Source: Eledone cirrhosa (Eukaryota). Taken from it: a stretch of 64,000 nucleotides of DNA. Below are positions 3,315-58,897 of this stretch, one piece after another. Where the stretch lies: assembly GCA_964016885.1 (NCBI GenBank), contig OZ024743.1, forward strand, positions 303,738,001-303,802,000, in the 5' to 3' direction. The notes under the pieces are model-generated. The model was given only the letters and a program-made list of their open reading frames with translations. It was not told where the DNA came from and made no database searches. How positions within the stretch are numbered: position 1 is the stretch's first letter; each line of letters begins with the position of its first letter. A program made the translations under genes and the position numbers.

Positions 3315-4050
3315 TTAATTAGGTTTATAATATTTAAATGTTTTTTTTAGTTTATGATTACACGATATAATTAATTCCTGTCTTTTATTTAATAAGATAT
3401 CCCTAGACTTCATTATTTCAAATAGTTCTTGGGAACATAATCTACATTCCTTTCTATTATTTTGATAAGGGGTGGCTCTTTTGAGCACACTCCAGGTCAA
3501 ATCATATTTTATATTTTTATTTTTATAACTATTGATTTTTTCTGCTAGAGATGTTGTATTAGCCAGTGCGGCATTTTTAAAGCTATGTTTGTGGGTATTA
3601 TATCTTGTCTTAAAATTGTTAGAGGTAGCTCCTATATATGAGCAAATAGAATCTTTAGTTTTAACATTACATTTATAGACTATGTTGTTAACAAGACAAT
3701 TCCCTTTTAATGGGCAGTTTGTTTTGTTTCTACAGTTACATCCTTTCGTTAATTCTGTATTTGAGGAGATATTATTGTTAATTTGATGTACTGGTGGTAT
3801 ACTTATAGTTTTCTTACATTTATATGCATTATATGCACTTATATTTTGTTTTATGTTATTTGTTGTAGAATATGAGAATTTAACTGTAGACCTATTTAAG
3901 ATTTGATGGTATTTGTGGTTTGGCGGGAAGTTTTTCTCAAGGATATAAAAAAATTTTTTAGCAATATTATCCTTAACTTGTAAATTAAAAGGAGCATTAT
4001 ACCAAGTAACTCGTCTATTACGGTTTCTATGTTGTTTATTATTTTTATTA
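3315..4050 (-). pseudogene. Penelope-like element (PLE-1), 5'-truncated, GIY-YIG endonuclease region
   Basis: Minus-strand translation RRVTWYNAPF ... CNCRNKTNCPLKGNCL ... SYIGATSNNFKTRYNTHKHSF ... CRLCSQE ... LNKRQELIISCNH; disrupted upstream. Confidence 0.9.
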
Positions 4051-4210
4051 TTTTTATATGTTGTATCATGATTTTTACTAGGAGGAATAATGTTAATGAT
4101 CTCACCACAACTATTTTTAGTTATATTTGTAGATTTAGGTGTTTTATCTTTTTTATTAGGAGTTTTATTATTAATATTTATTATAGTCTTATGATGAGTA
4201 GTTTTTTGAG

Positions 4211-4924: not shown

Positions 4925-5102
4925 AGAGAGAGAGGAGGAGTCAGAACCCCGACGACTGAGTTCCGGCCATTTCGACAGGATGATCTAAACGCTAACCTTC
5001 GGGGTCCTGACTCTTTTCCTATCAGCAAACCTACTACCCTATGTATCGAATAATATGGTGTGTTACGGTCCACCTGTTTCCTTACCACACTTCCTTCGTT
5101 AT
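4925..5102 (-). mobile_element. Diverged copy of a ~200 bp hairpin-ended non-autonomous element
   Basis: Reverse complement resembles 5163-5357 (ataacgaagga..gtggtaaggaa..agggtagtag..ataggaa..gacccc..ggggt). Confidence 0.6.
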
Positions 5103-5162
5103 ATATATGTATATATGTATATATATATATACGTTAAATATATATATATATATATATGTATA

Positions 5163-5354
5163 TATAACGAAGGAATTGTGGTAAGGAACCAGATGCACCA
5201 TAACGCACGAATGTACTCAATACTTAGGGTAGTAGAGTGGGGAATAGGAACAAGTATGACCCCGCCGTCAGAGCTCAAGCCGTTTCGACGGCTATTTCGT
5301 TGAAATGGCCGTCGAAACGGCTTGACCTCTGTCGTCGGGGTCATACTTGTTCCC

Positions 5355-6491: not shown

Positions 6492-8840
6492 TTAGCTGTA
6501 TACTTTATGCAATGTTCTGTGGAATTTATGCAAGCAGAGAGAAAACAAGTCAGTGCGTCTATCTATTATAGAATCTAAATTATAAATAATGGTAAAGTTT
6601 TCATTTAGACCGAGATTACACGTCTTGGATAGAGAACAGTTCAAGTATAACGAAGCAGAAGAAAACTTTTTCCAAGATATGTTATATTTAATATTTTTGT
6701 CTTTCAAGGACCATATGAGTTCTGAGAGAGCCGTGTTGGTTCTTTTAAGTTGGTATTTAAAAGACTAATGATGATTATAAAGACGAGCTTTAAAGGAGGT
6801 GGAAGTGGAGCCAGAATAGGTGAAGGAATTGGTGTCAATTATAACTTTACATTCGTAGATTAAGTTTTTATCAAGACAATGGTTGTTGAGAGGACATTTA
6901 TTTTTAACAGGGCAATTGCAATTGCGATTAGAGAGATTATTAACGGGTGACCTAGTGTTATCTATAGAAGGAATTGGATTGGAGAAGTTATTTGTGATAG
7001 GAATAATAGTTTCTTGATTTAGAATGGGATTAAGAACATTTAGCGAAGTTGTGTTTGACGTTGTATTTGGGTTTGCAGAAATTAGCCTAGAGTTTACAAT
7101 GACGTCGGGAGTACTATTACTATTATTATGATATTCAGTGTTGGAAGGAAGAGATTTAGTATTTAGTATTTTATTGTTGTGTTTAGAGATAATGTTGGAA
7201 ATGTTGGAGGATGTCGAATAGGAACATTTTATAGTGTGTTTGTTAAATATGTTACTATATATATGAAAGGGAGGGAAGCATTTATTTAAGGCACTAAAGA
7301 ATAATTTAGGAATATTATTATTAATAGAGATGGAGAAAGGAGCATTATACCAGATTATGTTTTTGTCTCTAGGTCTTTTATTAAAGTTATTGGAATGATC
7401 ATGATTTATTATTCTACTGTAAGATCTTCTAGAATTGTGTTTCTTTACTATATTTGATTTTATCAGGATAGCCGGCTTTAGAAAGCGCGTTATTATAGTA
7501 ATTGGCGTTAGCATCAAATATATTTTTATTAGAAGATAGGTTAGATATTCTTTTTCCAATATTACTAACTATAGCATTCTTAATATTAGTGGGGTGTTTA
7601 GATCTAAAATTAACATAATTTAGGTTCTCATTGTTTTTATGGTAAGGGTAGTGTCAAGATTAAGAGATACATCCAAGAAATTAGCTAGTTTGATGCTGTT
7701 ATCAAATTCAATTTTTAAGTTATGTTGGTTAAAGAGGTTACGTATATTGTTCTTAATAATATTAAGGTTAACTATGTTGCAATTTAAGATATTAAAGAGT
7801 CCATTGTCACGATAAATTCCACCGCGAAATTGAGGAATTTTCCGACTCAAAGAGTTCAAAATAAAGATACCAATTAAATCTGTTAATTGGGATGAATCGG
7901 ATGCTCCCATTGTGATGTCGAAGTTGGTAGAAGTATCAGCTCTGGTCCAATATTAATTGTTGAATTCTAGGATGGTTTTACGTGCGGTGAGAATGATGTG
8001 AAGTTCATCTGTGGTGATGTCAGAATATTTAAATGCGAAATATTTAAATGTTGAGAAGTGAAGGCGAAATAGAAGTTTAGTAGCTGGCAATATCAAATTG
8101 AACACATTTTAGTTTGTTTTTATTATTCAATTTGTTGAACCAGCCAATCACTTCAGAAGTACCAAACCATAAATTTAAGTTCAAAGATGGCTTTACTAAC
8201 AATCCTCAGATCTCATTTAGAGGGGGCGATTTATCTAACAGGTAGTTCAGTACGAAAATTGTTTTTGTGATCCTTGAGATTTATCCTCGGAGTTCTTGGG
8301 AGGAATGGTTCGGTCTTTTTTCCGATGCCAAGTTTTGACATAATCTCAGAGGCTTCAAAGTTTATGGATTCTAAATTATCATGGTTGGTTTTACGATATT
8401 TTTTCATAAGTTCCTTTAGGATAAGGTTGTTATAGTTATCCTTGGAAATACCATATAAATTATTGGTTTTGTCAGAGTGGACTAAAACTTTTTTTGAGGA
8501 ATTTAGGTTTGAAATTGTGTTCCTGAGATTTACAAGGTGCTCTTGTCCTTTGTAAGGGTATCTCTTGAATTTAAGATGTTTTATAATTTTTGTTAACTCT
8601 TCGTCGAATTGCACTAGATTTTTGTTGGAAGGAGGATTTCTTCTAGAATTAAATAGATGATCGAGGAAGTTATGTTCTTTGATATAGAGGTTCCCTTTTA
8701 GGCGCTGGTCATAGAAATAAGCTATCCATCTAAGTCTTCTTACAAAGGAGTCAGTTTTTTTCGATTAGAAGTTTAGTGAATTCAGATTTACCAGGTATAG
8801 GAATGTCTTTAGTTGAATTGGTTATATTGTAATAATCCAT
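6492..8840 (-). pseudogene. PLE-2 polyprotein (reverse transcriptase + GIY-YIG), frameshifted
   Basis: MDYYNITNSTKDIPIP start; SDKTNNLY; LKDHKNNF; FDITMGASDS; GIYRDNGL (YRDD-like); FLDVSLNL; IIWYNAPF; CNCPVKNKCPL; YSGSTSTSFKARLYNH. Confidence 0.92.
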
Positions 8841-9841
8841 GTTGTAGAAGAAAAAAAGGTAAAGAACCATCAAAAGGTATCCAATATGAGAGTTAGCGCT
8901 CAACCGTTAAGGAGCAAATTAATGTAGGTGAGCTTTATTGTAGTACAATAAAGCAATGCAGTTATCGGATAAGAAGAACTCTACAATTTGTAGGACTGGA
9001 GTATACATCTTTAAAAATATACCCATCTTTCTACCTTATTTCAAAGTTATGTATTATACATTATATAATACTTGTTACTCATTCTATATCACTCCTATTT
9101 ATCACTTCCTTTTCTTCCTTTTCCTTTTCTTTTCTTTTTCTTTTAATTTCTAACCGCTAATCTGTACCTTTTCTCACTGTGCCTAACATTGAAACAATTA
9201 TAACACAATACAATAAATTCTTACTTTATATCACCTTGAAAAAATCCTTCGTAAACATCAACATTTTTTTTTTTTTACGTTAGATTATTCATCCTCAATT
9301 CATTATTATTTCCCTTTCATCTAACTTACTCATGCACATCTCACAATATATCCTTACTTACATTACTTGTGTTTTTTTAATAATACATATCAACATTTTC
9401 TTTCCATCGCACATATTATTAAACCCTTAAATATTATTCTTAATACATATTAACATTTTCTTTTCATCGTACATATTATTAAACCCTTCAATATACAAAC
9501 CTTAACTTTACGTTATTTTTTCTGTTCGTTAATTTTGAAATTCTTTTAATTTATACATTATCTTCCAACGGTTTTTCAACCTCTCTATGTAAAACAATAT
9601 AGTTTTCTCAGTTATAAAAGCTATCTCTCTCTCTCTCTATCACCCATCTCTCCTCCTATCTCATCCTTCCTCATTATACTACTCCCCCTCCACTTGTTAC
9701 TCTGATCTCCTCCTCTTTTTCATTCCCCCCCTCACAAATTTGTTTACCCGATATCACACGTCAATCTAAAACTACTTTTCATATGTTGATTTAAAACTGC
9801 ACTATTCACAAGCGTTTTTTAACCTTCATATCATGTCTTCC

Positions 9842-11282: not shown

Positions 11283-12104
11283 TCTGTATATATACAAAAT
11301 TAAGTATGTGTGTATGTCTGTGTATTACCTATAGGGGCCTACATCTTACGACCGATTTTCATGAAACTTTACAGGCTCATAGATTTGTCATCGCGGAGCG
11401 TTTTCAATATATCAGCGTATCGTTTTTTTTTTTATTCCGGGGTCATTCTGCAGACAACATTCGATAGGGAGTGTCATATTTTTTTAGGTATCGAAAAATA
11501 AGATTGTTGTTTCTAGCTCCCACATTTTGCCACCGATGTCGTTCAAATTTTAATCAAAATATAATTTATCATTGCACATCCTGTATTGGCTTTATACTTT
11601 GCATTTGTCTTTCAGGGACGGCGTGGCAGCCGCTTAAATATTTAAAAAATACCACTTTTAGACTCAAATTTCCACTCTTTCGGCTCTAGCTCCCACATTA
11701 ATCAACGTACTTTGTTCAAATTTTAGACTACACTAGATCAGGATTATTTCACGTGTTAATCTGCCTTTATATTTTGCATTTCTTGTTCAGGAACGGCGGG
11801 GCAGCCGCTTAAATATTAGAAAATACCAGCTTTTCGGTCAAATTTCCGCCTTTTCCTCTCTATAACCTTTTTTCGGCTCTATAACTTTTTTCAACCGATT
11901 TCATTCAAATTCGAAACTCCCTCCCCCAGCATTCCCCTTCGTCAGTCATCCGCGTTTCTCAGTGGTAGAGATCATCACCACCCTCCCCGCATGGCCTGTG
12001 TGTGGCCATAGATGAGTCATCGAGAAGTAGTCGCTAAGATCAACACCCTTTCATCAAAGCAAATATTACTTTACCTACCCAGGCAACGCTGAGTACTGTT
12101 GCTA

Positions 12105-12105
<1 letters not shown>
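11283..12105 (+). mobile_element. Non-autonomous Helitron (~820 bp)
   Basis: 5' TC after A; 3' subterminal hairpin cccaggcaacgctgag followed by CTAG|T; internal ~170 bp subrepeats; 3' end resembles that of the 19153 Helitron. Confidence 0.75.
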
Positions 12106-12155
<50 letters not shown>

Positions 12156-12744
12156 ATTTGAAAGTTTGTTTATTTTGGGTTTTCCAGAATCGTTGTGTGC
12201 CACCGGATGTCGTATGTCCTGTAGTCGTGATATAAAAAAAATGATTTTTCTCAATTGTTTCTCATGGGTATTAATACATCTAAAGGCATTTTCCTATTAT
12301 AGCGTGGTCTTACATATAAGTTTCGGGCGTACTTAGGTTCGGGTCGCTGATGGCCCGGGGTGTAATTTTGTTACTTTGTGTGGGTTGGGGTCTACGATTT
12401 TGGAACAAGTTCTGTGTGGGATGTGGTCTACGGATCGGCACCTGTTTGTTTCAGGGGGCACTCGCGCTTTTTCAATGGGGTTATAGTTTTGTCTGTGGAT
12501 TCTGGGATTATTCTCATAGTTTTTTTTCTGGGAGTATGTTTGATGTTTGTATCTTTTTTGTTGGTTGTTGTGAGAAAATCACAAACCCTCCATCTCAATT
12601 CTACTTTTGAAAAGCATAAGAAATATGAAAGCGGTAAAGGTAATAAATAAATATTCTTAATAAAACTCCAGATGCGTTTTAGATCTATTTTCCTCTTACT
12701 TTCACACATTGATCGCTCGTATACAGGAAACTGACTGGCCAGTG

Positions 12745-12842
12745 TGCTGATATGCAAATTTGGATGATCAGTGGATCTGCTAATATGCAGATCTGACAGA
12801 TCAGCCAGTCTGCTAATATGCAAATCAGGCTGATCAGTCACT
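12745..12842. repeat. Three ~33 bp tandem repeats containing ATGCAAAT/ATGCAGAT
   Basis: ctgctaatatgca(a/g)at... repeated; gives the DLHIS repeat in ORF 12428-12841. Confidence 0.6.
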
Positions 12843-13167
12843 GTATATTTTAGAAAATATCATATATGTTCACTAGCTCTGACAGTGTGCAGGTGAACAA
12901 TGATTAAGCGTAATACCCAGACACATTAGTGTCAGCAGATGTGTTTACATGCCAACACGGGAGCAAGAATTATGGGCTCATTCTACTGACAGCTTTAACA
13001 ATGAGGATTGTTTGCATTATTACAAACGAATCGAATATTATTTTTCATATTCCAAAATCTCAGATTATATTTATATGTATATATATATATAAGCTGAAAA
13101 AAAATGAAAACGAAATTTCATTTCTCACTCTTAGTATGGCACTTACTTAAATCTGGCAGATGGGTAA

Positions 13168-13210
13168 ACGGTGCTGATGATAGCTAACAAGCTTGAAACT
13201 AGTACATCGT
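13168..13210 (+). ncRNA. Minimal type I hammerhead ribozyme, intact core
   Basis: acggtg-CTGATGA-tagctaacaagctt-GAAA-CTAG-TA-catcgt. Confidence 0.85.
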
Positions 13211-13399
13211 TCCTGTGTCAGTGTTGAACAAAAAGGTGACGTGGTTGCCTTAACACCGTATGGCATAAATTCAGGCTGTTCAGTTTGTTGACAAACGAAC
13301 AAAGCGGCGTTATAATAAGCGTCCGCTAAACTGATGCGTGCATATATGTATGTGTACCTGTATGTATATATATATATTCTCGATAAAAGCACTGGATAT

Positions 13400-13442
13400 G
13401 TAGTCCTGAAGATTTCTAATAAGAATGAAACGCGTAGATTAC
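13400..13442 (+). ncRNA. Minimal type I hammerhead ribozyme, copy 1
   Basis: gtagtc-CTGAAGA-tttctaataagaat-GAAA-CGCG-TA-gattac; outer extension ctcgataaaagca/tgcttttatcgag. Confidence 0.85.
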
Positions 13443-13709
13443 TTCCCTTGCTTTTATCGAGAATCTAATTGTAATACGTGACGTATTCTATTCTATAGCG
13501 ATTAGGTCTTCAAAATGTTTATTATAAACATACAGAATATTTTCGAATATTCTATGTCTATATTCACATATATATCGCTATTTCAGAGCATTTATTCCAA
13601 TTTCTAATTTCTGCCGGACCGGCAACCGCTCTTTCAAACCAGTTCCTGTACACAGCTAAGTATTCTATAAGTCTCTAGCTGTGTCATTCTCGATAAAAGC
13701 ACTGGATAT

Positions 13710-13752
13710 GTAGTCCTGAAGATTTCTAATAAGAATGAAACGCGTAGATTAC
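13710..13752 (+). ncRNA. Minimal type I hammerhead ribozyme, copy 2
   Basis: Same sequence as 13400-13442, offset +310. Confidence 0.85.
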
Positions 13753-14019
13753 TTCCCTTGCTTTTATCGAGAATCTAATTGTAATACGTGACGTATTCTA
13801 TTCTATAGCGATTAGGTCTTCAAAATGTTTATTATAAACATACAGAATATTTTCGAATATTCTATGTCTATATTCACATATATATCGCTATTTCAGAGCA
13901 TTTATTCCAATTTCTAATTTCTGCCGGACCGGCAACCGCTCTTTCAAACCAGTTCCTGTACACAGCTAAGTATTCTATAAGTCTCTAGCTGTGTCATTCT
14001 CGATAAAAGCACTGGATAT

Positions 14020-14062
14020 GTAGTCCTGAAGATTTCTAATAAGAATGAAACGCGTAGATTAC
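14020..14062 (+). ncRNA. Minimal type I hammerhead ribozyme, copy 3
   Basis: Same sequence as 13400-13442, offset +620. Confidence 0.85.
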
Positions 14063-14215
14063 TTCCCTTGCTTTTATCGAGAATCTAATTGTAATACGTG
14101 ACGTATTCTATTCTATAGCGATTAGGTCTTCAAAATGTTTATTATAAACATACAGAATATTTTCGAATATTCTATGTCTATATTCACATATATATCGCTA
14201 TTTCAGAGCATTTAT

Positions 14216-14252
<37 letters not shown>

Positions 14253-14487
14253 TGCTACTATACGTCTGTATACATGTATGTATGTACGTATACATACATA
14301 CTTCAATTTAAGTAAGTGCCATAATAAGAGTGAGAAATGAAATTTCGTTTTCATTTTTTTCAACTTATCGTTTTCGGTATGCCTGACCGATTTAACTCAC
14401 TCAATATGCAAATTAGGCTGCTCAGCCGTTAATTTTCATAAGGAAAGTATATACTTTCGAACGTTCAACTATCTGGCAGATGGTTAA

Positions 14488-14530
14488 ACGGTGCTTATGA
14501 TAGCTAACAAGCTTGAAACTAGTACATCGT
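14488..14530 (+). ncRNA. Hammerhead motif, core mutated (CTTATGA)
   Basis: Homologue of 13168-13210 with G5->U. Confidence 0.65.
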
Positions 14531-14680
14531 TCCTGTGTCAGTGTTGCACAAAAAGGTGACGTGGTTGCCTTAACACCGTTTGGCATAAATTCAGGCTGTT
14601 CAGTTTGTTGACAAACGAACAAAGCGGCGTTATAATAAGCGTCCGTTAAACTGATGCGTGCATATATGTATGTGTACCTG

Positions 14681-14736
<56 letters not shown>

Positions 14737-14784
14737 TGCTACTGTACGTCTGTATACATATATCTATGTACGTATACATACATA

Positions 14785-14837
<53 letters not shown>

Positions 14838-17417
14838 TATACATATATGTATGTATATATATATGTATGTATATTTGCATATATGTATATGTGCATATAT
14901 ATATATATATGTGTGTGTATGTGTATGTATATGTACATACATATGGCGCTCTGAAATAGCGATGAACATATTAATGTACACAATGTGTATTTAACAGTAT
15001 ACGTTATGTTTATGAAATGTTGGTAACATATAGTAACCTCTGTTACATGCGTCCTCCATCGCATTACACCAGAGAATATTCAGGAAAAAAAGACTTTAGC
15101 CTACCAAATACCTGAACTTTATACATATGACCCATATTCTTATTTTAGCAAGTTTGGTATTTGTAGGTATAATTTCTGCCGGATATGAATCGTCATATAT
15201 TTTGCCATCGACAGCTTAATGTCTTCTGCACAGACTATACGTGACAGAAATGATTGCTTACCACTTCCAAAGTTACGAAATCGTTTATAGCTCTTCACCA
15301 GAAATTAATTCGTAAAATAAATGTCACAATTCCTGAAATAGATTCCATTGAGTTTCGATCATATGATCTGATAACGACCTATAATGTATATGAGAATTAT
15401 TGTCAGAACAACATTCAGTCGAGTACTTGTTTTTTTTTTTCAGGTTTTTTTGTCAATCTGAGACGAAGCGTTACATTAATTATTGAATAAGACCTTGGGT
15501 TTGTTCATAAATATTAATTTTCTTTACATAGTTATCTTGCACCCTCTTAACATGTGTTAACATATCGATATTATGAGATAAGTAGTAAACATCGGTGGTT
15601 TGTTATTATTGTCAACATTTATTTATATAAACATTTATACAGAAAGGAATACATTTGTATGAGGTGTGAAAAAGACATTAATTTTATTTTGACAAATTCA
15701 TTTAATCACCGTCAAATTACTCACCTTGGGAGATTATGATAGTCTCCCAACTGTTGTGTCACGGTTGGTAACACTTCTGGAATGCTATGGAGCTCCACCA
15801 TCACTTTTTTCCGGAGCCTGTCGAACAAGTGTTGTTGTTCTCATCCAGGATAGCTTGGATTATATGGGCGGAGTGAGTGTTCGCAATCACGCGGTGAAGT
15901 TGATAAGTATTTGCCGCCCACAAGTCCGGTAGTATTCCTTATTGATTGTTTGGCTTTGTCGAGCGTATTCATGATGCAAAAACCAAAGGGTGACAAATAT
16001 ACATGCCAACATTACCTTTGCATTGCTGCGAACCTGTATTATTCAAACGAGAAAACTTATTTCTAGTAAATATATAAGATAATTATGTATGGCGAAGGCT
16101 TATGAGGCTTCTCAGTTCTGAATTTAAAATGTTATATATGCAACACTTTATAATCTTCTAGGATTTATCACGTTTAATAAACCGTGTGAGACCAACAACG
16201 TATTTTGAGGTGAATTAATGGACTATATATCATACTTTTAGAGGAATACGTTAGACATATTATAATATATCCAATTAAGTTTCCCCATTTAATACAAGAT
16301 TATTTTATAAGAAAGTCGAAAATAAAAGAAGGATTAAAACAAATACTCTATTACGAATAGCGGCAGCGTATTCGACCACTTATAATTTAGATTATTGCGT
16401 CAATACGTAAGATTAATTAAGCCTTCATCAGCAGTATATATGTCCCTTTTCATTTATTTTCTTTCGTAGGAAGACAATGGAAAATCGGATGTCGTCTTAA
16501 AAATACATTCGGCTTCTTCGGCTACTAGTCTCCCTATTATTTGCTCTAAGGGATACATGTTAACCTTTACTTAAAGAAAAATATATGTTGCTTGTCAGAA
16601 GTATTCAATGTGTGTGGGAAGATAAGGCCAGTGCTTATATTTCTTATTTAAAACGGTTAATATAATCCTTATATATTACTATCATTTTGCAGTAGCTGTC
16701 ATGACAGCAGACATTATATCAAGTAATACATTCTCATTTATGATTATTTACTAAGTCTATTTTTGCTTATTCAGTGAGTGGGAAAAACATACTATTTCGC
16801 AAGTACATCTGTTTACTTGCATAAACAGAGATTTTGACGTATTGTAGAAATATTCAATTTTCTTTTTCAGTTCATTATTTGGTAGACATGTCTGAATAAA
16901 TTATACCACCAAGCGAACTGAGATGCAAAATACATTGTTTCGTAATGTCTATATTCATTTCTTTCTCTGTCTATAAATATGTAACTTTTGTGGTCATACG
17001 TATGTGTCGGCATCATTTTTTAAATGTTTTACTCGCAATGTTCCCCTCATATCATAGTACAAATTTCGACATATAATGATGAAAGTATTGTCTAGTTAAT
17101 TTTATGAACCTATAGGTAATTTTTTCCAAAGACGTTTCAGAGTAAATTGAGTACCAAGTTAGCTGACAAATAGACCATGTATATTATAATAAATACGGGT
17201 ACACAATTAGAGGAAAAGAGGTTTAAATATCACTCATCATTTTAAGAGTTCCATACTAAACACGATGGAGGTCTAAAAATGCAGATCGGGAAGAATGCTC
17301 CCATTCTTGTAATTTGAGTGAATTTGTGGCAATTAAACACCACGCCTTCGAGGCAAGTCTCCGACATAACTGCGATGTCACATTTGGTCCTTGTGGTCAA
17401 TAACATTAATTGTCTAT

Positions 17418-19152: not shown

Positions 19153-22104
19153 CTAGCAGATGTACCCGGCGTTGCTCGGGGTTTGAAATTATGCTTAGAA
19201 TATACAGCTTGGAAGTAAAAGAGGAACATTATTTGTCCCCAACCTGTCAAAATAAGCAGAAGTCTTCAATAATTAATGCAAACGAATATTTAGTGCAATC
19301 GTTGTACACATAAAACTATGCTGATAATGAAGTAAAACACTGAACAGGATGTAGTTATACAAATGATTAAAGACAATACACGTTGCAAATCTGTAAAAAA
19401 ACAGGCAGTTTTGCTAAAGTACAAAAAGTTGTAATGAAAGCAGAGTTGTATACAAACAATGAGAGTAGAATAAGAGAAAATCTATTCTTTAAGAGCATCC
19501 TTTGCTGTGTATGGTTACATTTTTAACTTATAATCCTAAATATCCTGCATGACATATTCATTGGTATGTTTTGTAATGAGTAAGGTGAAGTCAAGGCAGA
19601 GTTGTAATAAGTCTTTTTGTTAACACTAAAGCACTTCAGGATAGACGATATTCTTTGTTTTTCTTTTCGGAACAAACACAAAGAGATTATCTCGACTGCC
19701 AACTCGTGAGCAGGCAACGTAGAATTGTCCATGCGAAAAGCAAGGTTCATCAAAGTGAATTCCAGCAACGGACAGAGTTTGACTTTGCGACTTGTTTATG
19801 AACATCGCAAAGGCACCACGAAGGGGAAATTGGGTTCGGCGAAAGGAGAAGGGAGTATCAACGCCTTATGTAGTCAGGCTAATTTTTGTTATTGTCACAT
19901 CCTCGCCTTTTCCACATCCGGATAAAATGGTAGCGTCAATACTAAGTGGAGACAGATATTTAACCACAAGGCGTGTACTATTGCATAGATTTGGTGGAGT
20001 GATATTTCTCAGCAAAATAACTGGTGTTCCCACTTTCAGAACCAATGTATTAGGAGGTAAACCAGGAGGATTTAAAGAATTTAGAAATCCAACTGGATAA
20101 TTGACCGCATCCTGTGGATCACATACAGTATCAATAGATTTATATATCCCTGGACATCCAAGAAGAAGATGAAGAAGCTGATCGTAATAACCGTAAAAGT
20201 TTTGGTTGCATGAATGGCTCTTTCGCACAGCCAATCAAGATTCGTATAGTTATCGCGCAAGTTCGGGAATACACTCAGCTTGAGATCATCGACAGTTTCA
20301 ACTACATTGCAGATTTGATCAATTGCTATGTGTCCATCTGTATCTGGAGGTAGGTTACCATCTCCGATTGTAAGAATTTCTCCAGAAAATGTGGATGACA
20401 GAGGTTCACCATGCAACCTTGCACGCATGTTGGTAGTTAGTCTTAATGGGGTCATTTGTCGCCACAATGGTGAGGACTTAAGACATGCATTTACCGCATA
20501 TGCTCTTGTTCCTTTCGGTATTATATGAAGAGTCTGTCCGAAATCTCCTGATAGCAGAAGGGTGATACCCCCCATAACATCATTGCAATCCCGTATGTCT
20601 TGCAAATACCTATCTAGTGCCTCAAGAGCACCTTTGTGTGCCATTGTGCACTCACCCCAAACAATAAGGTGACACCTTCGCAGCAGATGAGCCCTTTCGG
20701 AGTCTTTGGTTATATAACAAGTAGGAGTTTCCAATTTTGCCAAATCAGGGGCAATTTCAAAACTGAATGTGCCGTCCTTCCAGCAGGGAGCAAATTGTTG
20801 CGATTCCGGAGGACGCAAATGCTATTGCTATGTCTTTATTCTGTCAAACCTTTGCAAGAAGAAGTTTAGTAACGAAAGTGTTTCCTGTCACGCCTGGAGC
20901 ATCGAGGAAAAATATGACACCTCTTCTTTGAAATACCAATTCAGTAATGGTGGCATAAGCCAGTCGCTGATCAGCTAGAAGTTTTGGCTCATTATCTGAG
21001 ACGTAAAGGCCAAGATCATGGATGTCATAAGACGTCTCTTGTATGATATCTGTGGGAAGTTTGTTTGAGTCTGTGCGATGAGTTTCTTGTAAACCGTAGT
21101 AACGTAAAACCTTTCCTCCAATCAGAGTTAACTTGTCCTCAATATCAATGGGAGCTCTGTTGTATAATTCATTACTAAAGCCGACCTCTATTTCTGGAAG
21201 CAGCAATTGTGTTTGGTGTCTGTAGTCGTCTGTTAGTTCATCCCTATATTTCATCCACAAGGACAGAGGGTCAAATAAGTTGCACGAGTGCAAAAGTACC
21301 GCAAATAAATTTCTTAGGCTGGCAGGTGAATGTGAAAGAGAAACTTCCGCCATCACTTCATCCCACTGCGAACCATCTTCCAGCAATCCACGCCTCAAAA
21401 ATGCCTTTGTGCATGTTGGAAGAACTTGTCCGTCTAACGTTCGGATACCATAAAAGCAGGTAGGTCCTCTGACCACATGTAGTAGCATGCGAAGATGGAA
21501 GCACACGTGTTAGTTTGGGGGCACAGTATAAACTCTGCCCAAGCACTCGTTGAACTTGATGCCTGGATAACTTCGACACACTGTCCTTTTTTTCTGCGCT
21601 TCCATGTATTTTTCCCAAGTATAGTAATATGGGACTTGTGGATAAAGTAAGGTTTTAGCAAATGGATCTTGATATATTTTAAAGAAAACGGTAAGAGTAG
21701 TATCCTTTGGTTCTAGTGCTAACTGAGCAGCTGATGCATTCGTAAAATATACTCTCTGAACGTTCTCCAGGTGCATTTTAAGTTTTTGAACAGCAGGATG
21801 CCGTTGATGGATAAAAAATTCGAAAATTGGCCAGAACGCTTGACAAGTTGTTTATCTCCCTTTTTGTATAAGGATTGTCAATAAAGTTTGTTATCTCCCT
21901 TACATCAATTTTTCTACCGATAATTTGATATCGATTGTTATTGCTCAACGTGGGCCGATTTGAAAAATGTTTGTGATGTGACAATCTTAGCGACCGGTGC
22001 AACGTGCATAGAAAATTTGGTCAAATTCAGTTGGTAATTGTGAAAGCCTTAAGCATGCAAAGCTGTACACAGACACACAAAAATTCCACGCTTTAATATA
22101 TATA
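19153..22104 (-). mobile_element. Internally deleted Helitron
   Basis: Minus-strand 3' end cccgagcaacgccggg hairpin + CTAG|T at 19153; TA-rich 5' end near 22100 (approximate); PIF1 helicase relic inside. Confidence 0.85.
19480..21776 (-). pseudogene. Helitron RepHel PIF1 helicase region, frameshifted
   Basis: HLENVQRVYF; LRMLLHVVRGPTCF; FFLDAPGVTGNTF (Walker A); LIVWGECTM; LLSGDFGQTL; LRLTTNMR; GLPPNTLVLKVGTPVILLRN. Confidence 0.92.
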
Positions 22105-23641: not shown

Positions 23642-24521
23642 CAACCCACCAAATCTCCAACAACTCACGACGCCTCCAACCCACCCATATAGGAGGAGAC
23701 GCAGAAAAATCACGTGGTACAACCCACCCTACTCTTCGACCCTAAAGAACAGCTTGGCTCGATCATTCTTTGGAGCACTTGATAAATGCTTCCCGAGAAA
23801 CCATAGATAACACAAGATATTCAACAGACACACTGTGAAGCTCTGGCATTCCACCACGAGAAATCTGACCCAACACATAGCTAGCATCAACAGGAGTAGG
23901 CTTAAAAACCACCCCCAACCAGAAGATGGCAATACAAGCACACAGCAGAACCATGTGGAAGGAGAGAAGGGGGGACCCAGTGCCCACCCAATAAATCCAA
24001 ACATACCCGGGGACACCCCACCGTGCCCGGGGGAAGACCACCATGTAACACTTAACGTGAACCCCACTCTAGGCACGCAGGGGTCGACCACCCTCTCCAA
24101 CTGCAGAAACCCCGAATCATGCCTCCTTAGTAATGAATACCTTAAGAAGAACCTAGTATACGGTTGTAGGGTTAAAACCCCCAACTCCGAACACCTCTAC
24201 ATAGGAGCCACATCAACGAGCTTTAAAGACGGTTGGTATAACCATCGCCATTCCTTCAATAAGGAGGCCAAAACGAAAAGTACGGCTCTCTCCGACTTGA
24301 TCTGGAAGCTTAAGCTGGACAGGACCCCGTACTCTCTGGCCTGGTCCATAATCAGGAAAGTACCACCCGATAAAGGGGGATCTGGCATATGCAAACTATG
24401 TCTGAACGAGATCCTCGAGATACTAAGAGGTGGAAGCCGCCTGATAAACCTCAGAACCGACTTCTTCGGGACATGTAGACACCTCAGGGCCGGGACGTTC
24501 GTCAAGATATATGGACAGTAG
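23642..24521 (+). pseudogene. PLE-3 GIY-YIG endonuclease region
   Basis: RRKITWYNPPYS; LDKCFP then stop; NCRNPESC; LYIGATSTSFKDGWYNHRHSF; STALSDLIWKLK; CKLCLNE; CRH. Confidence 0.9.
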
Positions 24522-34696: not shown

Positions 34697-34764
<68 letters not shown>

Positions 34765-34792
34765 ATTTATATATATATATATATATATATAT

Positions 34793-34856
34793 GTAAGTAT
34801 GTATGTAAGTGCCATACTAAGAGTGAGAAATGAAATTTCGTTTTCATTTTTTTCAA

Positions 34857-34860
<4 letters not shown>
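34793..34860 (+). repeat. Fragment of the ~430 bp HHR family
   Basis: aagtgccatactaagagtgagaaatgaaatttcgttttcattttt. Confidence 0.7.
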
Positions 34861-34916
<56 letters not shown>

Positions 34917-37173: not shown

Positions 37174-37559
<386 letters not shown>

Positions 37560-38303: not shown

Positions 38304-38745
38304 CTATAAGTATCCAGCTTCTATAAGTTACTGTTAGATTCACTCCCTTCTTTCGCCGAAAAGAAGTGACACGGTCAGTACTTTAAAACCGATAGCGTAT
38401 GGTCTATACCATACATACATTCATGTATGCATCGCGCTCTCGGAGCACCAATCCTAATACCTAAATTTTGCTGGACCGGCAATCGCTCTGTATAATCAGC
38501 TCCTGATTATTACTGGAATACTATAAGGATCATCCAGCTTCTATCATTTTCGCTGAAGCAGGGGGAGCGTGGCTCTGATGAGCTTCTCTCCCTTCATTCA
38601 CCGAAAAGAAGTAAGTGTCATAGTTACTTCTTTAAGACCGATAGCGTATGGTCTTCTAAATGTGTTTAATTAAAGATACGGTATATTGCCAAATATACTA
38701 TATATACATTCATGTATACGTTGCTATTTCAGAGCACCAATTCTA
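38304..38745 (+). mobile_element. Diverged relative of the 310 bp HHR repeat, abutting the 5' end of PLE-5 in inverted orientation
   Basis: Shares ggaccggcaa.cgctct, atagcg..tggtcttc, gctatttcagagca; CTGATGAG at 38575 but GAAA/stem III deleted. Confidence 0.65.
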
Positions 38746-38971
38746 TTATATATATATATATATATAAGTATGTACACGTACATACATATATGTATACAGA
38801 TGTACAGTAGTATGTATATATATACATACATGCACACAAATATATATATGTACGTATGGATTTAACGAACATTTATTATAATGTTTGGTTTGTTTGTAAA
38901 CAAACATCACGAATTAACACGTACAATGTTTAGCAACTATCGTTGCCCTTTTGTTCAACACTGACAAAGGA

Positions 38972-39014
38972 ACGATGTACTAGTTTCAAGCTTATTAGCT
39001 CTCGTCAGCACCGT
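38972..39014 (-). ncRNA. Minimal type I hammerhead ribozyme, intact core
   Basis: acggtg-CTGACGA-gagctaataagctt-GAAA-CTAG-TA-catcgt. Confidence 0.85.
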
Positions 39015-39406
39015 ATACCTTCCTGCCTGATGATTGGACGTCTGAAAGTATATACTTTCCTTATGCATATTAACGACTGAGTAGCCTAATTTGCATATCG
39101 AGTGAGTTAATCGGCCGGGCGCACCGAAAACGATAAATGGAAAACATTAAACGAAATTTCATTTCTCACTCTTAGTACGGCTCTTGCTTAAATATAAGTA
39201 TGTACACGTACATACATATATGTATACAGACCTACAGTGGTATGTATATATATACATACATGCACACATATATATATAAATATATGTACGTATGGATTTA
39301 CCGAAAATGTATTATAATGTTCAGTTTGTTTGTAAACAAACATCCCGAATTAAGCCGTACAGTGTTTAGAACCATCGTTGCCCTTTTATTCAACACTGAC
39401 AAAGGA

Positions 39407-39449
39407 ACGATATACTAGTTTAAAGCTTATTAGTTATCGTCAGCACCGT
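39407..39449 (-). ncRNA. Hammerhead motif, GAAA mutated to TAAA
   Basis: acggtg-CTGACGA-taactaataagctt-TAAA-CTAG-TA-tatcgt. Confidence 0.65.
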
Positions 39450-39846
39450 ATACCTTCCTGCCTGATTATTGAACGTCTGAAAGTATATACTTTCTTTATG
39501 CATATTAACGCCTGAGTAGCCTAATTTTCATATCGAGTGAGTTAATCGGCCGGGCGCACCGAGTACGATAAATGAAAAAAATGAAACGAAATTTCATTTT
39601 TCACTCTTAGTACGGCTGTTACTTAAATATAAGTATGGACACGTACATATTAATATGTATACATACGTGCAGTAGTATGTATATATACACATACATGCAC
39701 ACATATATATATGTACGTATGGATTTACCGAACATTTATTATAATGTTCGGTTTGTTTGTAAACAAACATCCCGAATTAAGCCGTACCGTGTTTAGCAAA
39801 GGAAAGTATATACTTTCAGACGTTCAATCATCAGCCAGGAAGGTAT

Positions 39847-39889
39847 ACGGTGCTGACGAAAGCTAATAAGCTTGAAACTAGTACATCGT
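39847..39889 (+). ncRNA. Minimal type I hammerhead ribozyme, intact core
   Basis: acggtg-CTGACGA-aagctaataagctt-GAAA-CTAG-TA-catcgt. Confidence 0.85.
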
Positions 39890-40274
39890 TCCTTTGTCAG
39901 CGTTGAACAAAAGGGCAACGATGGTTGCTAAACTCTGTACGGCTTAATTCGGGATGTTTGTTTACAAACAAACCGAACATTATAATAAATGTTCGGTAAA
40001 TCCATACGTACACATATATATGTGTGCATGTATGTATATATATACATACTATTGTACGTCTGTATACATATATGCATGCACGTGTACATATTTATATTTA
40101 AGTAACAGCCGTACTAAGAGTGAGAAATGAAATTTCGTTTAATTTTTTCCATTTATCGTTTTCGTTGCGCATGGCCGATTAACTCACTCGATATGCAAAT
40201 TAGGCTACTCAGCCGTTAATATGCCTAAGGAAAGTATATACTTTCAGACGTTCAATCATCAGCCAGGAACATAT

Positions 40275-40317
40275 ACGGTGCTGACGATAGCTAATCAGCT
40301 TGAAACTAGTACATCGT
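40275..40317 (+). ncRNA. Minimal type I hammerhead ribozyme, intact core
   Basis: acggtg-CTGACGA-tagctaatcagctt-GAAA-CTAG-TA-catcgt. Confidence 0.85.
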
Positions 40318-40645
40318 TCCTTTGTCAGTGTTGAACAAAAGGGTAACGATGGTTGCTAAACACTGTACGGATTCATTCGGGATGTTTGTTTACAAACAAA
40401 CCGAACATTATAATAAATGTTCAGTAAATCCATACGTACATATATATATATATATATGTGCGCATGTATGTATATATATATACATACTACTGTACTCATA
40501 TATGTATGTACGTGTACATACTTATATTTAAGTAACAGCCGTACTAAGAGTGAGAAATGAAATTTCGTTTAATTTTTTCCATTTATATATATATATATAT
40601 AAGAAGAGAATTAGAGTTTAGCTTCAAGCATAGATGTATACAGAT

Positions 40646-49859: not shown

Positions 49860-51330
49860 AGTCCGCTCTATCATAATATACATTCATAATTCCGACTTGA
49901 TTCAGGTTATTGAGTAAAGATAATTTCAGATATCTAGAAGAATACTACATCAAATATATCCCATCTAAGAACGGATCGAAACTCACCCAGTTCGATATAA
50001 CTGACTTTTACTGCTCTATTAGTATATACTTACTAGACAAATACTTCGATTTTGCTCGTAATGTTAGATATATCAGTAAACAAAAGCTTGACCGATTTAC
50101 CACACACGAACCACATTTCTATTCCAAAACGGCATGACTTGGGTTAAATAATCTGGCACACGATTCATTCGACATTTCAATAGGATCAGACGACAGTGCA
50201 GATTACACATGTAGTCGTGTTGGATTACACATGTTCCATACATTTAAACGTAAATTCCCTAACTTCACAATCGGTTTATACCAAAAAGAGTGTCTGTCTG
50301 TTTATCCTTACACGACCGCAGCACGCACGATATGGTCAGATTCCGTAAATACCTGATAGGAACCTTTAGTGCCTTAGGACTCAAAATCGCAGCCAACACG
50401 AGCATCATTAACACAGACTTTCAGGACGTTAATCTGGAACTAACAACAGACACACATAAACCCTATCATAAACCGAATGAGAGGTTAATATATATCAAGG
50501 GAGGACCCTGCAATCCACATACGGCTTTTAGAAATCTAGTACCAAACATTAGCTGCAAAATAATACACATTATAATCCAGTAGAGAAATATTTCAAAAGG
50601 CAGCGCTGCACTATAGCAAGGCCCTCCGAATTAGTGGACTCAACTACTAATCAAATATATATCTAATTGACACCCGCCTAGAAATAAAAAAAACAACAGC
50701 AGAAAAATTACTTGTTTCGTGCCTCGTTTCTCGCAAAATATAAAGACTTATCTAGTTAAGAAACTCTTAGACCTTAGTGATAAGCACTTTACCCCACATC
50801 ATAAATAAAATAAAATCGTCAATTTCCATGCCATCAATGAGATAAAAAATGATGGCAAAAACAAATAGATGATGATCTGCGATGCTTTACAGAATGAAAG
50901 AACACTGTCCATTACAACTAAACTGTATCGTAAGCCCACGAGGTTAAGATAAAACACACAAGCGCAAACAACTGTGAAAATTATGAAGGTAAGATCCAGG
51001 ACCGATTTGAGGAAAGTTTCTAATTGCACGTCTACTCATTTAGGCATCCCAACATGAATACCACCACACCGCTAGTGAAATGACAATTTTAAGAAAGGTG
51101 ATTATCGCATGGAATGTCCAGGCCATAACAAAAATAAAAAACAAAAAATGAGGAAAGGAGGTATGCCGCTCGGCATTAACGAGAAATATAGGAATTTGAA
51201 ATATTTAAACTCACGGGAAAAGACCCTATCTTACAAGAATGAGGTCTTTAGACATTGTTTGCATCGTAGGGTTCACATTTTATCTAAGTGGAAGCGCTTC
51301 TCCAGATCTGCTAATTCCTCCATGACACTA
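49860..51330 (+). pseudogene. Degenerate Penelope-like element (PLE-4): RT with partly deleted EN
   Basis: LTQFDITDFYCSIS; FDISIGSDDSA; TDFQDVNLEL..HKPYHKPNERLIYI; RKITCFVPRFSQNIKT; KNEVFRHCLHRR. Confidence 0.8.
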
Positions 51331-53234: not shown

Positions 53235-53456
53235 GAAGAGGAAGAGAAGAAGGGAGTACTCACTGTTGGTGCTCCTGGAGATGAGGGTTGTACATTTATT
53301 CGGGGTGTGTACAACCCCTGTGTAACGTCTCCCCCCTAGTGGGGATTTCAATTGTTATTTGTTATTTTATTAATAGTTTTATTTTCATATATGTAAACTC
53401 CCCATTTGTATGTGTCCCCTTCTTTTGTGCCCTTGTGGCTAATAATGAAATGTATC
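53235..53456 (+). mobile_element. Short L1/Tx1-like LINE 3' UTR fragment in (TCTA)n
   Basis: Homologous to 54375-54590; ends cccttgtggctaataatgaaat+tatctat. Confidence 0.7.
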
Positions 53457-53457
53457 T

Positions 53458-54590
53458 ATGGTGACGAGATCCCTCTGCTGTCAACACCCTTCGAAAAGAG
53501 GGCTGAGGATGCCGTGGCTAATGATGCGTAAACACGCATTAAAGCTACGGCACCTCCACGTATTCCTCACAGGTCAACCGGTGTGGGCCCCGTTTGCGAG
53601 ACCAACCTTTCCCAGATTCGTCTCACTCACTGAGCTGCAATCCTGGGTCAAGCAAAGACCGAGAAAACTGGGCGCCTGGCACACTGACTGTGCCCAGGTG
53701 CTCAAGACCCGGTGGCAGGCGGATCCGGTTATCAGTGGAGACTCCACCTCGACATTCTATAGAGGGCCGGTACGACGATGCCCTCGGAGAAGCCATAGAC
53801 ATGCAGGAAGACGAACTGGACAGCCTGTTCGGTAGGACATTCAGCCCAGGACCTATAGACAACTTCTAGAAGTCCCTGTCCTGGCACTGCTACCGAGGGG
53901 CTCTACCCGTTCGAGAAAAGCTCTACAGACACGGGCGACCGGGTAGGGACCCCGCCAAAAAGATCTGCCCCAGATGCGTGTGCGACGAGGAAACCGTTGC
54001 ACACGCATTGGTACACTGCTCGGGCGTAGCCGATCTGTGGGGCTATGTCGAACGACTGCTGTCACGGGTGGGACCGATCCGGTTGACCACCGAGGCCATT
54101 GTAACGATTAAGCCGCCTCCCCCCGTCAAAAATGAAGGAGAGAATGTGTTTCTGTGCGTAATAGCCATGGTTGTATGGTGGACGCGTCTGAAAGGACTGA
54201 GGTCAGGCAGCTTTCTCTCTGGCCAACAACTGATCCGTTGCTTCCGATATCATTTCGGAAGAAGGATCAGGATGGAGAGAGAGTTGCTCCATCCCAGTCG
54301 TTTTTATGAAAGGTGGTGAAAGTGCCGAGAATGGCCCGTGTGAATGGGCCTTCTCTCTACATCAGCCTGTAGGTGGAAAAGATGAAGGAACGAAGGAGCA
54401 TCCTCTCTCTGTGCTCCTGAGTTGAAGGGTTGCACACTTTTTTCGGGGTGTGTGCGACTTCCGAAAACGCCTCCTCCCTATTGAGAACTTTATTATTAAT
54501 TTTACATTTGTAATTTGTTTTCCTTACTCGCCTTTTTGTGTATATGTATTTGTCCCCTTCTTTTGCGCCCTCGTGGCAATAAATAGAAAT
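53458..54590 (+). mobile_element. 5'-truncated L1/Tx1-like LINE (C-terminal zinc-binding region + 3' UTR)
   Basis: KSLSWHCYRGALPVREKL; CPRC..ETVAHALVHC; VVWWTR; tail runs into (TCTA)n. Confidence 0.8.
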
Positions 54591-54699
54591 ATATCTATCT
54601 ATCTATCTACCTGTCTGTCTATCTATCTACCTACCCATCGATATATCTGGTTGACTGCAATCCCTAGTTATATTATTTAACTTTATTCATCTATGTATT

Positions 54700-57899: not shown

Positions 57900-58895
57900 A
57901 ATTTCTCACTCTTAGTACGGCTGATACTTAAATATAAGTATGTATATGTATACATATATGTATACAGACGTACAGTAGTATGTATATACATACATACATG
58001 CACATATATATATATGTACGTGTGGGTTTACCGAACATTTATTTTAATGTTCGGTTTGTTTGTAAACAAACAACCCAAATTAAGCCGTACAGTATTCGGC
58101 AACCATCGTTTCCCTTTGTTCAACACTGACAAAGGAACGATGAACTAGTTTCTAGCTTATTAGCTTTCATCCACATCGTATACCTTCCTGTCAATCGATT
58201 GAACGTTTGAAAGTTTATACTTTCCTTATGCATATTAATGGCTGAGCAGCCTAATGTGCATATCGAGTGAGTTAGTCGGCCGGGCGTACCGAAAACGATA
58301 AATGGAAAAATGAAATTACATTTCTCACAATTTATTTACAAACAAACCGAACGTTATAATAAATGTTCGGTAAAACCATACGTGCATATATATATATATA
58401 TATGTGCATGTGTGTATGTATATAAATATTACTGTACGTCTGTATACATATATGTATGTACATATACATACTTATATTTAAGTATCAGCCGTACTAAGAG
58501 TGAGCATACAATTTCATTTTTCCATGTATCGTTTTCGGTACGCCCGGCCGACTAACTTATTCGATATGCAAATTAGGCTGCTTAGCCGTTAACATGCATA
58601 AGGACAGTATATACTTTCAAACGTTCAATCGACTTACAGGAATGTATACGGTGCTGATGACAGCTAATAAGCTAGAAACTAGATCATCGTTCCTTTGTCA
58701 GTGTTGAACAAAAGGGCAACGATGGTTGTCGAACACTGTACGGGTTAATTCGGGCTGTTTGTTTAGAAACAAATCGAACATTATAATAAGTGTTCTGTAA
58801 ACCCATACGTACATATATATATATGTGTGCATGTATGTATGTATAGACATACTACTGTACGTCTCTATACATATAGGTATGTACGTATACATACT

Positions 58896-58897
<2 letters not shown>
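57900..58897. mobile_element. ~430 bp HHR family, array 3: minus-strand unit then ~1.3 plus-strand units, head-to-head
   Basis: Orientation switch near 58330; HHR relics at 58137-58179 (minus, core TGGATGA) and 58648-58690 (plus, CTGATGA..GAAA-CTAG-AT, U16.1 lost). Confidence 0.85.

What the first reader, a model, noticed from the sequence alone, without database searches (positions are those of the whole stretch)
13151..14790. One ribozyme repeat nested in the (TA)n tract of another
Seen: the 310 bp array sits in the internal (TA)n of the first ~430 bp unit (left tatgtgtacctgtatgtatatat, right tatatatgcatgctac). The second unit (~14670-14745) shows the uninterrupted site. The result is five same-strand HHR motifs in 1.4 kb, four with intact cores. 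Inference: the host repeat carries its own TA target, and a read-through transcript could be cut into chimeric pieces, a possible route to new families.
Basis: partly seen in the sequence, partly recalled or inferred. Interest (0 to 1): 0.7.

Follow-up and report, generated by a model that had tools for sequence, protein, structure and literature searches.

The report
Ribozyme repeat nested in another's microsatellite
A young 310-base repeat carrying a self-cutting-RNA motif sits inside the TA run of an older repeat of the same kind, likely because Penelope-type jumping-gene enzymes paste both into TA runs; such nesting is about as common as chance predicts, and no hybrid offspring were found in this genome.

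Summary
The nesting is real. An 846-bp array of 2.7 identical 310-bp hammerhead units (B, 13376-14221) interrupts the internal (TA)n of an older hammerhead repeat (A). The flanks align to the uninterrupted unit at 219/225 and 80/83. There are five same-strand hammerhead motifs, one with a broken core. Both repeats are abundant, retrozyme-type families with the Penelope footprint: fixed paired ends, inverted arms, (TA)n targets. An intact Hydra-type Penelope family in this genome shows the same footprint. Two more independent B-in-A nests were found: 3 among 1,015 B ends, against 1.1-2.3 expected by chance. The proposed route to new families is not supported. Both hybrid cut-site junctions have 0 matches genome-wide, this nest has not been copied, and hybrid ribozymes mispair next to the cut site. 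A near-identical B in other organisms' runs looks like carry-over. The scan has noted these families and TA pile-ups many times on other DNA of this genome. Verdict: an ordinary nested insertion of known element kinds, with one testable twist on which sites would be cut.

The parts
13089..13152 (-). Inverted arm of the outer element A (reverse complement of 14306-14368); its outer end is A's second fixed end and runs into (TA)n
   Evidence: blastn 95% over 64 bp; alignment; the same end seen 6 times in sampled A loci
13151..13375 (+). Outer element A, unit 1, part left of the insertion, ending in the left remnant of the internal TA run
   Evidence: 219/225 to 14471-14695
13168..13210 (+). Type I hammerhead motif of A, intact core, predicted cut after 13204; helix III is a 6-nt palindrome
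   Evidence: descriptor scan; fold
13376..14221 (+). Inner element B: 2.7 identical 310-bp units, one arm only, 5' truncated at the base of the ribozyme hairpin, 3' end at the family's fixed end (unit position 226)
   Evidence: TRF; 1,015 exact 3' junctions into (TA)n in G000; ends mapped in 30 loci
13376..13464 (+). 16-bp stem that encloses the B hammerhead
   Evidence: fold -31.4 kcal/mol, z -6.2, 0 of 200 shuffles as low
13400..13442 (+). B hammerhead 1, intact core, predicted cut after 13436
   Evidence: stem I pairing probability 0.78-1.0
13710..13752 (+). B hammerhead 2, predicted cut after 13746
14020..14062 (+). B hammerhead 3, predicted cut after 14056
14222..14470 (+). Right remnant of the TA run and the rest of A unit 1; holds internal copies of both fixed A end sites (about 14303 and 14368)
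14471..14790 (+). A unit 2 with the uninterrupted TA run (14687-14733); ends at A's first fixed end, into (TA)n
14488..14530 (+). Second A hammerhead with a private G-to-T change in the core (14496); cut site after 14524 intact
   Evidence: 0 of 18 A1 hammerheads matched in fetched loci carry this change

Best explanation
An array of a young 310-bp hammerhead repeat (B) sits in the internal TA run of an older hammerhead repeat (A), likely because both are non-coding passengers that Penelope-like (probably Hydra-clade) enzymes paste into TA runs, and A's own TA run was one target among more than a million. Order of events (inferred): A inserted first as a two-armed copy (inverted arm 13089-13152, forward arm 13151-14790). 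Its two units have since drifted 2.7% apart and one core broke. Later an endonuclease likely cut A's internal TA run, and reverse transcription started at B's fixed site (unit position 226). It copied 2.7 units of a multimeric or circular B RNA and stopped at the base of the ribozyme hairpin, joining the left TA remnant at a 2-3 base overlap. The nest is likely a dead end for hybrids. Each ribozyme would fold only with its own family's stem I and helix III, so a read-through RNA would mainly release ordinary 310-nt B monomers (13437-13746, 13747-14056). If the A motifs work as strand-swapped dimers, the intact core at 13174 would cut the site at 14524 and the broken core would leave 13204 uncut.
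For: Shown: colinear flanks. B copies 0/536 different, A units 6/225 different. B has 15,060 matches to a degenerate 22-mer of its ribozyme 3' half (the first 100 listed were all B), 1,361 exact matches to this variant and 1,015 exact 3' junctions into (TA)n. In 30 B loci the 5' side was in view in 14; 12 of these had an inverted arm, and all 7 arms whose outer end was in view ended at unit position 200, 26 nt from the other end. A has two recurrent ends as well (9 and 6 distinct ends). An intact 821-aa Penelope family with the DKT and CxCX5C motifs of the Hydra clade and a hammerhead in its terminal repeat ends in (TA)n at two fixed sites (46 nt past the cut in 6 of 8 loci, 134 nt in 2 of 8). 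Chance test: 2,731 exact A1 tracts, 0.95-2.0 million TA tracts estimated from 19 pre-chosen 10-kb stretches, 1.1-2.3 detectable nests expected, 3 found, Poisson P 0.10-0.41. Of the first 100 B ends listed, 1 lies in an A internal tract; 6 have the end of an A, B-like or Penelope element within 250 bp. Hybrid junctions: 0 and 0. Literature: Hydra-clade PLEs insert in (TA)n (PMC8557442); two RT start sites make the PLE tail (PMC11167929); animal retrozymes are proposed PLE derivatives (10.64898/2026.07.22.740005).
Against: No autonomous partner was identified: the one intact Penelope family examined has no terminal-repeat homology to A or B, so the enzyme is inferred from the footprint. The count of 3 is above the lowest expectation (1.1, P 0.10), so a mild preference for A's tract is not excluded. 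The inputs are rough: exact-match counts are lower bounds, and TA density comes from 190 kb with 0-20 tracts per 10 kb. This B copy has one arm only, the minority form (2 of 14). Rfam did not score the motifs. No cleavage, transcription or empty allele was observed. A's stem I is only partly paired in folds of up to 400 nt (0.17-0.77) and is lost in a 600-nt fold.
Confidence: 0.82

Rival explanations
1. The nest is a nursery for hybrid families: read-through RNA is cut at A and B sites, the mixed piece is circularised and retrotransposed.
For: Same-strand motifs 232 nt apart. A and B share a ribozyme module (27/37 identical, 1 of 300 shuffles as high) while the other half of A is no closer to B than chance (74 of 300), which a past module swap could explain. 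The 468-nt piece 14057-14524 would carry the fixed end sites of both families.
Against: 0 matches for either hybrid junction in 3.0 Gb. Hybrid stem I has 4 of 6 or 3 of 6 pairs, with a mismatch beside the cut; the mixed helix III duplex is +0.4 against -4.8 and -7.5 kcal/mol. In the three nests only one A unit carries B. A shared ribozyme module is also what common descent with constraint on the ribozyme gives.
Confidence: 0.07
2. B homes on A: the purine-pyrimidine context of A's tract is a preferred target, so nesting is a targeted relation between two parasites.
For: 3 nests against 1.1-2.3 expected. A's tract is long (median 46 bp) and folds into a hairpin with its flanks in the RNA fold.
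Against: Not significant (P 0.10-0.41), and the index case was chosen because it is nested. One of the three is antisense. 99 of 100 sampled B ends are outside A tracts. Unrelated sequences also sit in A tracts (2 of 30).
Confidence: 0.07
3. The join arose at DNA level, by recombination or repair between TA runs, or by mis-assembly across TA runs.
For: Both junctions lie in TA, where joins leave no trace; no read set spans the locus.
Against: B ends exactly at the family's fixed 3' site. The A flanks resume in register with a tract of normal length. Two independent nests have the same design, one with both fixed B ends.
Confidence: 0.04

Closest known systems
Metazoan non-LTR retrozymes (Cervera and de la Pena 2020, PMC7229834: passages and section 13 read; Li, Clavereau and Pollet 2026, 10.64898/2026.07.22.740005: parts 1-3 of 5 read, supplements not seen)
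   Same: Non-coding tandem units of a few hundred bases, low GC, one type I hammerhead per unit, dispersed arrays, proposed mobilisation by Penelope-like elements.
   Different: One family is nested in another's internal microsatellite. The word search of PMC7229834 found no 'nested', 'chimer' or 'microsatellite'. A's period here (474 bp) is just above the 150-450 range given there. Expression and circularity are untested here.
Penelope-like elements, Hydra clade (Craig et al. 2021, PMC8557442: passages and section 11 read) and the PAc mechanism (Frangieh et al. 2024, PMC11167929: parts 1-2 of 4 read)
   Same: (TA)n targeting, partial tandems, inverted 5' truncated arm, two fixed ends that define a tail, hammerhead in the repeat.
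   Different: A and B encode no protein. The tail is 26 nt in B and about 65 nt in A, against 30-40 bp in those papers. No homology to the one autonomous family tested.
SaTar microsatellite-targeting MULE arrays of guayule and rice (PMC5907723: abstract and outline only)
   Same: Unrelated small non-autonomous elements pile up because they share a microsatellite target.
   Different: SaTars are DNA transposons described as uniformly non-nested; here the retroelement carries its target inside and is interrupted.
Dimer-dependent type I hammerheads with palindromic helix III (Cervera and de la Pena 2014, PMC4209133: passages read; Forster et al. 1988 seen only as cited there)
   Same: Helix I of 6 bp, helix II of 4 bp, helix III of 1-2 bp with a palindromic loop.
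   Different: Two families with different palindromes lie in one transcript frame, and one partner core is broken.

Membership tests
Non-LTR retrozyme (B) | Type I hammerhead in every tandem unit | tested here: met
   3 of 3 units, descriptor scan; paired changes against A in helices I-III; not scored by Rfam
Non-LTR retrozyme (B) | Tandem units of 150-450 bp, GC under 50%, no protein | tested here: met
   310 bp; GC 0.36 in 12001-14000; no frame of 110 aa or more overlaps 13376-14221
Non-LTR retrozyme (A) | Type I hammerhead in every tandem unit | tested here: inconclusive
   1 of 2 intact at this locus; 17 of 18 matched motifs in fetched loci have an intact core
Non-LTR retrozyme (A and B) | Self-cleavage in vitro | not testable with these tools
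   needs a transcription assay; only 1 of 9 predicted Xenopus dimers cleaved in the 2026 preprint
Non-LTR retrozyme (A and B) | Expressed as linear and circular monomer RNA | not testable with these tools
   no run on record as RNA was available
PLE-mobilised element | Two fixed 3' ends (tail signature) | tested here: met
   B: unit positions 226 and 200; A: two ends about 65 nt apart
PLE-mobilised element | Inverted 5' truncated arm next to the forward array | tested here: met
   A at this locus (13089-13152); B in 12 of 14 informative loci, though not at this locus
PLE-mobilised element (Hydra clade) | Insertion into (TA)n | tested here: met
   1,015 exact B junctions (the pattern itself required TA, so B ends in other targets were not counted); the 7 inverted-arm ends and the A ends were found without that condition in the window and L093
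PLE-mobilised element | Homology to the terminal repeat of an autonomous PLE | tested here: inconclusive
   none to the one intact family fetched (8 loci); other PLE families not examined
Chimeric retrozyme family | The same A-B junction at more than one locus | tested here: not met

The most novel reading that the evidence does not exclude
Retrozyme families that share one genome and one target are kept apart by family-specific locks (stem I and the helix III palindrome), and nests like this one are the place where the locks are tested. Here a strand-swapped A dimer would cut at the broken motif (14524), not the intact one, and release a 468-nt B-A hybrid (14057-14524) that carries the start sites of both families. 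Such hybrids, or uncut read-through RNA primed at B's site, could be pasted elsewhere and occasionally found a new family, which would explain why A and B share only the ribozyme module.
Probability: 0.1. Interest if true: 0.55.

Novelty: new member of a known kind. Interest (0 to 1): 0.25.

Why it matters
As it stands, little: nested insertion through a shared microsatellite target is expected once one element carries that microsatellite. The value is a measured null result (nesting near chance, no hybrid offspring in 3 Gb) and a natural construct. Two hammerhead families with different helix III palindromes, plus one broken core, lie in one 1.4-kb frame, so one transcription assay can show whether these motifs cut as monomers or strand-swapped dimers and whether families cross-react. 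If hybrids from such nests did found families, it would give a mechanism for ribozyme-module exchange among retrozymes. I found no paper describing that in four full-text searches (listings and abstract starts only), but the genome gives no sign of it.

Tried and rejected
Horizontal spread of B. Runs X4, X5 and X6, X11, X16, from five other coded organisms, each hold the whole B unit as one cyclic contig with 2-3 differences (depth 12-365). Rejected as probable carry-over: raw reads of another sample of X4's organism (X21, 1,938 million letters, about 1 in 100 of the run) gave no read on B or on A outside the simple repeat, and X6, X11 and X16 also hold low-depth near-identical A pieces. The source of the carry-over was not established, and 8 of 24 listed runs were laid. 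No RNA holder listed. Empty allele: contigs break at these repeats, so it could not be tested. DNA search of G000 with the B unit returned nothing, although the unit is in the genome; the tool skips very common words. The degenerate pattern was meant to cover both families, was out of register for A, and so counts B only. Rfam gave only microsatellite-driven miRNA matches below threshold. Pfam did not recognise the five Penelope fragments; their assignment rests on motifs and tblastn. Autonomous partner: not found in the 821-aa family; the two B-like fragments in the window have no Penelope ORF remains upstream. The nest searches covered only B's 226 end, gaps up to 30 bases and exact flanks; 79 of 100 B ends have a pure TA run of 42 or less, used as the detection factor. 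The script timed out and was rerun; an off-by-one in A's stem I there was corrected. Supplements of the bioRxiv preprint could not be seen and may list nested or chimeric families.

Full report
Setting. The window is G000:C4:303738001-303802000 of a 3.0-Gb, microsatellite-rich genome in 1,796 contigs. Earlier notes of the scan call the host a cephalopod; I did not test this.

Observation. Tandem Repeats Finder gives 13376-14221 as 2.7 copies of 310 bp with 100% matches; direct comparison gives 0 differences in 536 bases. I call this element B. The sequence on its left (13151-13375) aligns without gaps to 14471-14695 at 219 of 225, and the sequence on its right (14222-14305) to 14706-14788 at 80 of 83. 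B therefore interrupts the internal TA run of a larger repeat, A, whose second unit shows the uninterrupted run of 47 bp. A descriptor scan finds five + strand type I hammerhead motifs with cuts after 13204, 13436, 13746, 14056 and 14524. The last has a G-to-T change in the core at 14496, found in 0 of 18 matched A1 motifs in fetched loci; that this position is needed for catalysis is recalled knowledge. Rfam lists no hammerhead family among the 150 of 168 matches shown. Support for the motifs comes from their structure. Between A and B the core and GAAA are kept while helices I, II and III change on both sides, and B's motif sits on a 16-bp stem (z -6.2).

The two families. B has 1,361 exact matches to this copy's 43-base ribozyme, 15,060 to a 22-base pattern of its 3' half and 1,015 exact 3' junctions from unit position 226 into (TA)n. 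In the first 30 of these the 5' side was in view in 14. Twelve had an inverted arm and 2 were simply truncated, and all 7 arms whose outer end was in view stopped at position 200. The A subfamily of this locus has 2,731 exact matches to its left flank plus TA. In the first 30, 27 tracts were uninterrupted (12-108 bp, median 46), 2 held unrelated inserts and 1 was a rearranged junction. A also has two recurrent ends, about 65 nt apart (9 and 6 distinct ends), and this locus uses one at each outer end. Two fixed ends, inverted arms and partial tandems are the Penelope footprint described by Craig et al. (PMC8557442, passages and section 11). Frangieh et al. tie the two ends to two internal start sites of reverse transcription (PMC11167929, parts 1-2 of 4). 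The window holds Penelope remains, and a search with one of them found many copies with an 821-aa open frame (150 of 15,990 candidates scored). In 8 fetched loci this family has DKT and CxCX5C motifs (RWT where the paper gives RWK), a hammerhead in the terminal repeat, tandem and inverted copies, and ends in (TA)n 46 nt (6 loci) or 134 nt (2 loci) past the cut. It shares the footprint, but no terminal-repeat sequence, with A and B. The partner enzyme is inferred, not identified.

Is nesting special? Patterns for B's 226 end followed within 30 bases by A's right flank gave 2 matches (this locus and C2:93.98 Mb); with A's left flank reversed, 1 match (C1:120.74 Mb). Both others are true nests with A on both sides, and they are independent. 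The C2 nest is two-armed, with ends 200 and 226 and another B variant; the C1 nest is antisense. TA tracts were counted in 19 pre-chosen 10-kb stretches of C1-C5: 126, 100 and 60 merged tracts of at least 16, 20 and 30 bp, or 2.0, 1.6 and 0.95 million per genome. With 1,015 ends, 2,731 A tracts and a detection factor of 0.79, 1.1-2.3 nests are expected; P for 3 or more is 0.10-0.41, and the index case was selected. Of the first 100 B ends listed, all examined, 1 lay in an A internal tract. Four had an A-family end within 250 bp, 1 a B-like end and 1 a Penelope end (only these families were in the library). This fits a shared target, not homing, though a mild preference cannot be excluded.

Order and mechanism. 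The A units differ at 6 of 225 sites and the B units at none, so B came later. B's 3' end is the family's fixed site; its 5' end is a truncation at the base of the ribozyme hairpin with a 2-3 base overlap with the TA run. That 5' junction has only one other match in the genome, an independent insertion outside any A internal tract. The likely event is target-primed reverse transcription of a multimeric or circular B RNA at a cut in A's TA run; this step is inferred.

The hybrid idea. Circles joining a B cut to an A cut, in either order, would leave a recognisable junction if pasted back; both have 0 matches (exact patterns, so diverged copies would be missed). Hybrid stem I has 4 of 6 or 3 of 6 pairs, with C-C or G-G at the pair beside the cut. 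The helix III palindromes pair within a family (-4.8, -7.5 kcal/mol) but not across (+0.4). A hybrid would thus be predicted not to process itself. The 468-nt piece 14057-14524 holds all four. Motifs with such short helix III are reported to work as dimers (PMC4209133, passages). In the strand-swapped dimer (topology recalled, not seen in a figure) each core cuts the partner's site, so the intact core at 13174 would cut 14524 and 13204 would stay uncut unless the monomer fold works or another A RNA helps. Against a strict dimer need, PMC7229834 reports efficient monomer cleavage for most invertebrate retrozymes. Frangieh et al. also found cleavage unnecessary for insertion in vitro, so uncut read-through RNA is a possible template. 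No such product was found.

Other organisms. Five other coded organisms' contig sets held B at 99% identity, which suggested horizontal spread. Raw reads from a second sample of one of them had no read on B, and three of the sets also carried low-depth near-identical A pieces, so carry-over is the better reading.

Comparison and verdict. A and B meet the sequence criteria of metazoan non-LTR retrozymes; cleavage and circular RNA are untested. The 2026 preprint argues that such elements derive from Penelope terminal repeats (parts 1-3 of 5). Pile-ups of small elements at shared microsatellite targets are known from plant SaTar elements (abstract). I found no paper on retrozymes nested in one another in the listings, but the scan has many earlier notes on these families and on TA pile-ups in this genome, read after my own reading was formed. 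The finding is real, explained by known biology and near chance in frequency. Novelty: new member of a known kind. Interest 0.25.

Noticed in passing
window 38762-40600 and 57901-58897; fragment 34762-34884: Older A-family arrays (74-83% to the copy studied); the two arrays are inverted pairs of arms; three motifs with intact cores (cuts 38978, 39883, 40311).
   Followed up: partly
window 14948-15013 (-) and 38416-38736 (+): Diverged B-like pieces (72-76%) whose ends face the same TA runs as A arrays; the second looks like a degenerate tandem of about 290 bp without a detected hammerhead.
   Followed up: partly
window 6495-8906 (-), 3336-4052 (-), 23691-24515 (+), 49988-50517 (+): Remains of Penelope-like elements; the first belongs to a young family with many intact 821-aa frames and a 3.9-kb unit.
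   Followed up: partly
L069 1560-2040 and L087 1530-2270 (approximate): Unrelated inserts of roughly 480 and 740 bp inside A's internal TA run; not identified.
   Followed up: no
window 37358-37417; L098, L100, L103, L105, L108: Further hammerhead families: 11 motifs in 19 pre-chosen 10-kb stretches, many with different palindromic helix III sequences, which hints at family-specific pairing locks.
   Followed up: no
window 5014-5252: Long inverted repeat around a TA run (about 240 bp), a possible fold-back mini-element.
   Followed up: no
window 19866-21851 (-): PIF1-like helicase frames (Pfam PF05970, E 5e-30), probably a broken Helitron.
   Followed up: no
window 53449-57258: GC-richer stretch with LINE-like fragments: zf-RVT at 53870-54319 (E 8e-6) and RT-like frames on the minus strand at 54886-56825 that Pfam did not call.
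   Followed up: no
window 12745-12840: 33-bp tandem of 2.9 copies containing the octamer-like ATGCAAAT (label recalled), which also occurs in A at 14407; a possible promoter motif.
   Followed up: no
runs X4, X5, X6, X11, X16 on window 13376-13685: B assembles as one cyclic 340-nt contig in runs of other organisms, probably carry-over; a caution for searches that call such contigs viroid-like circles.
   Followed up: yes
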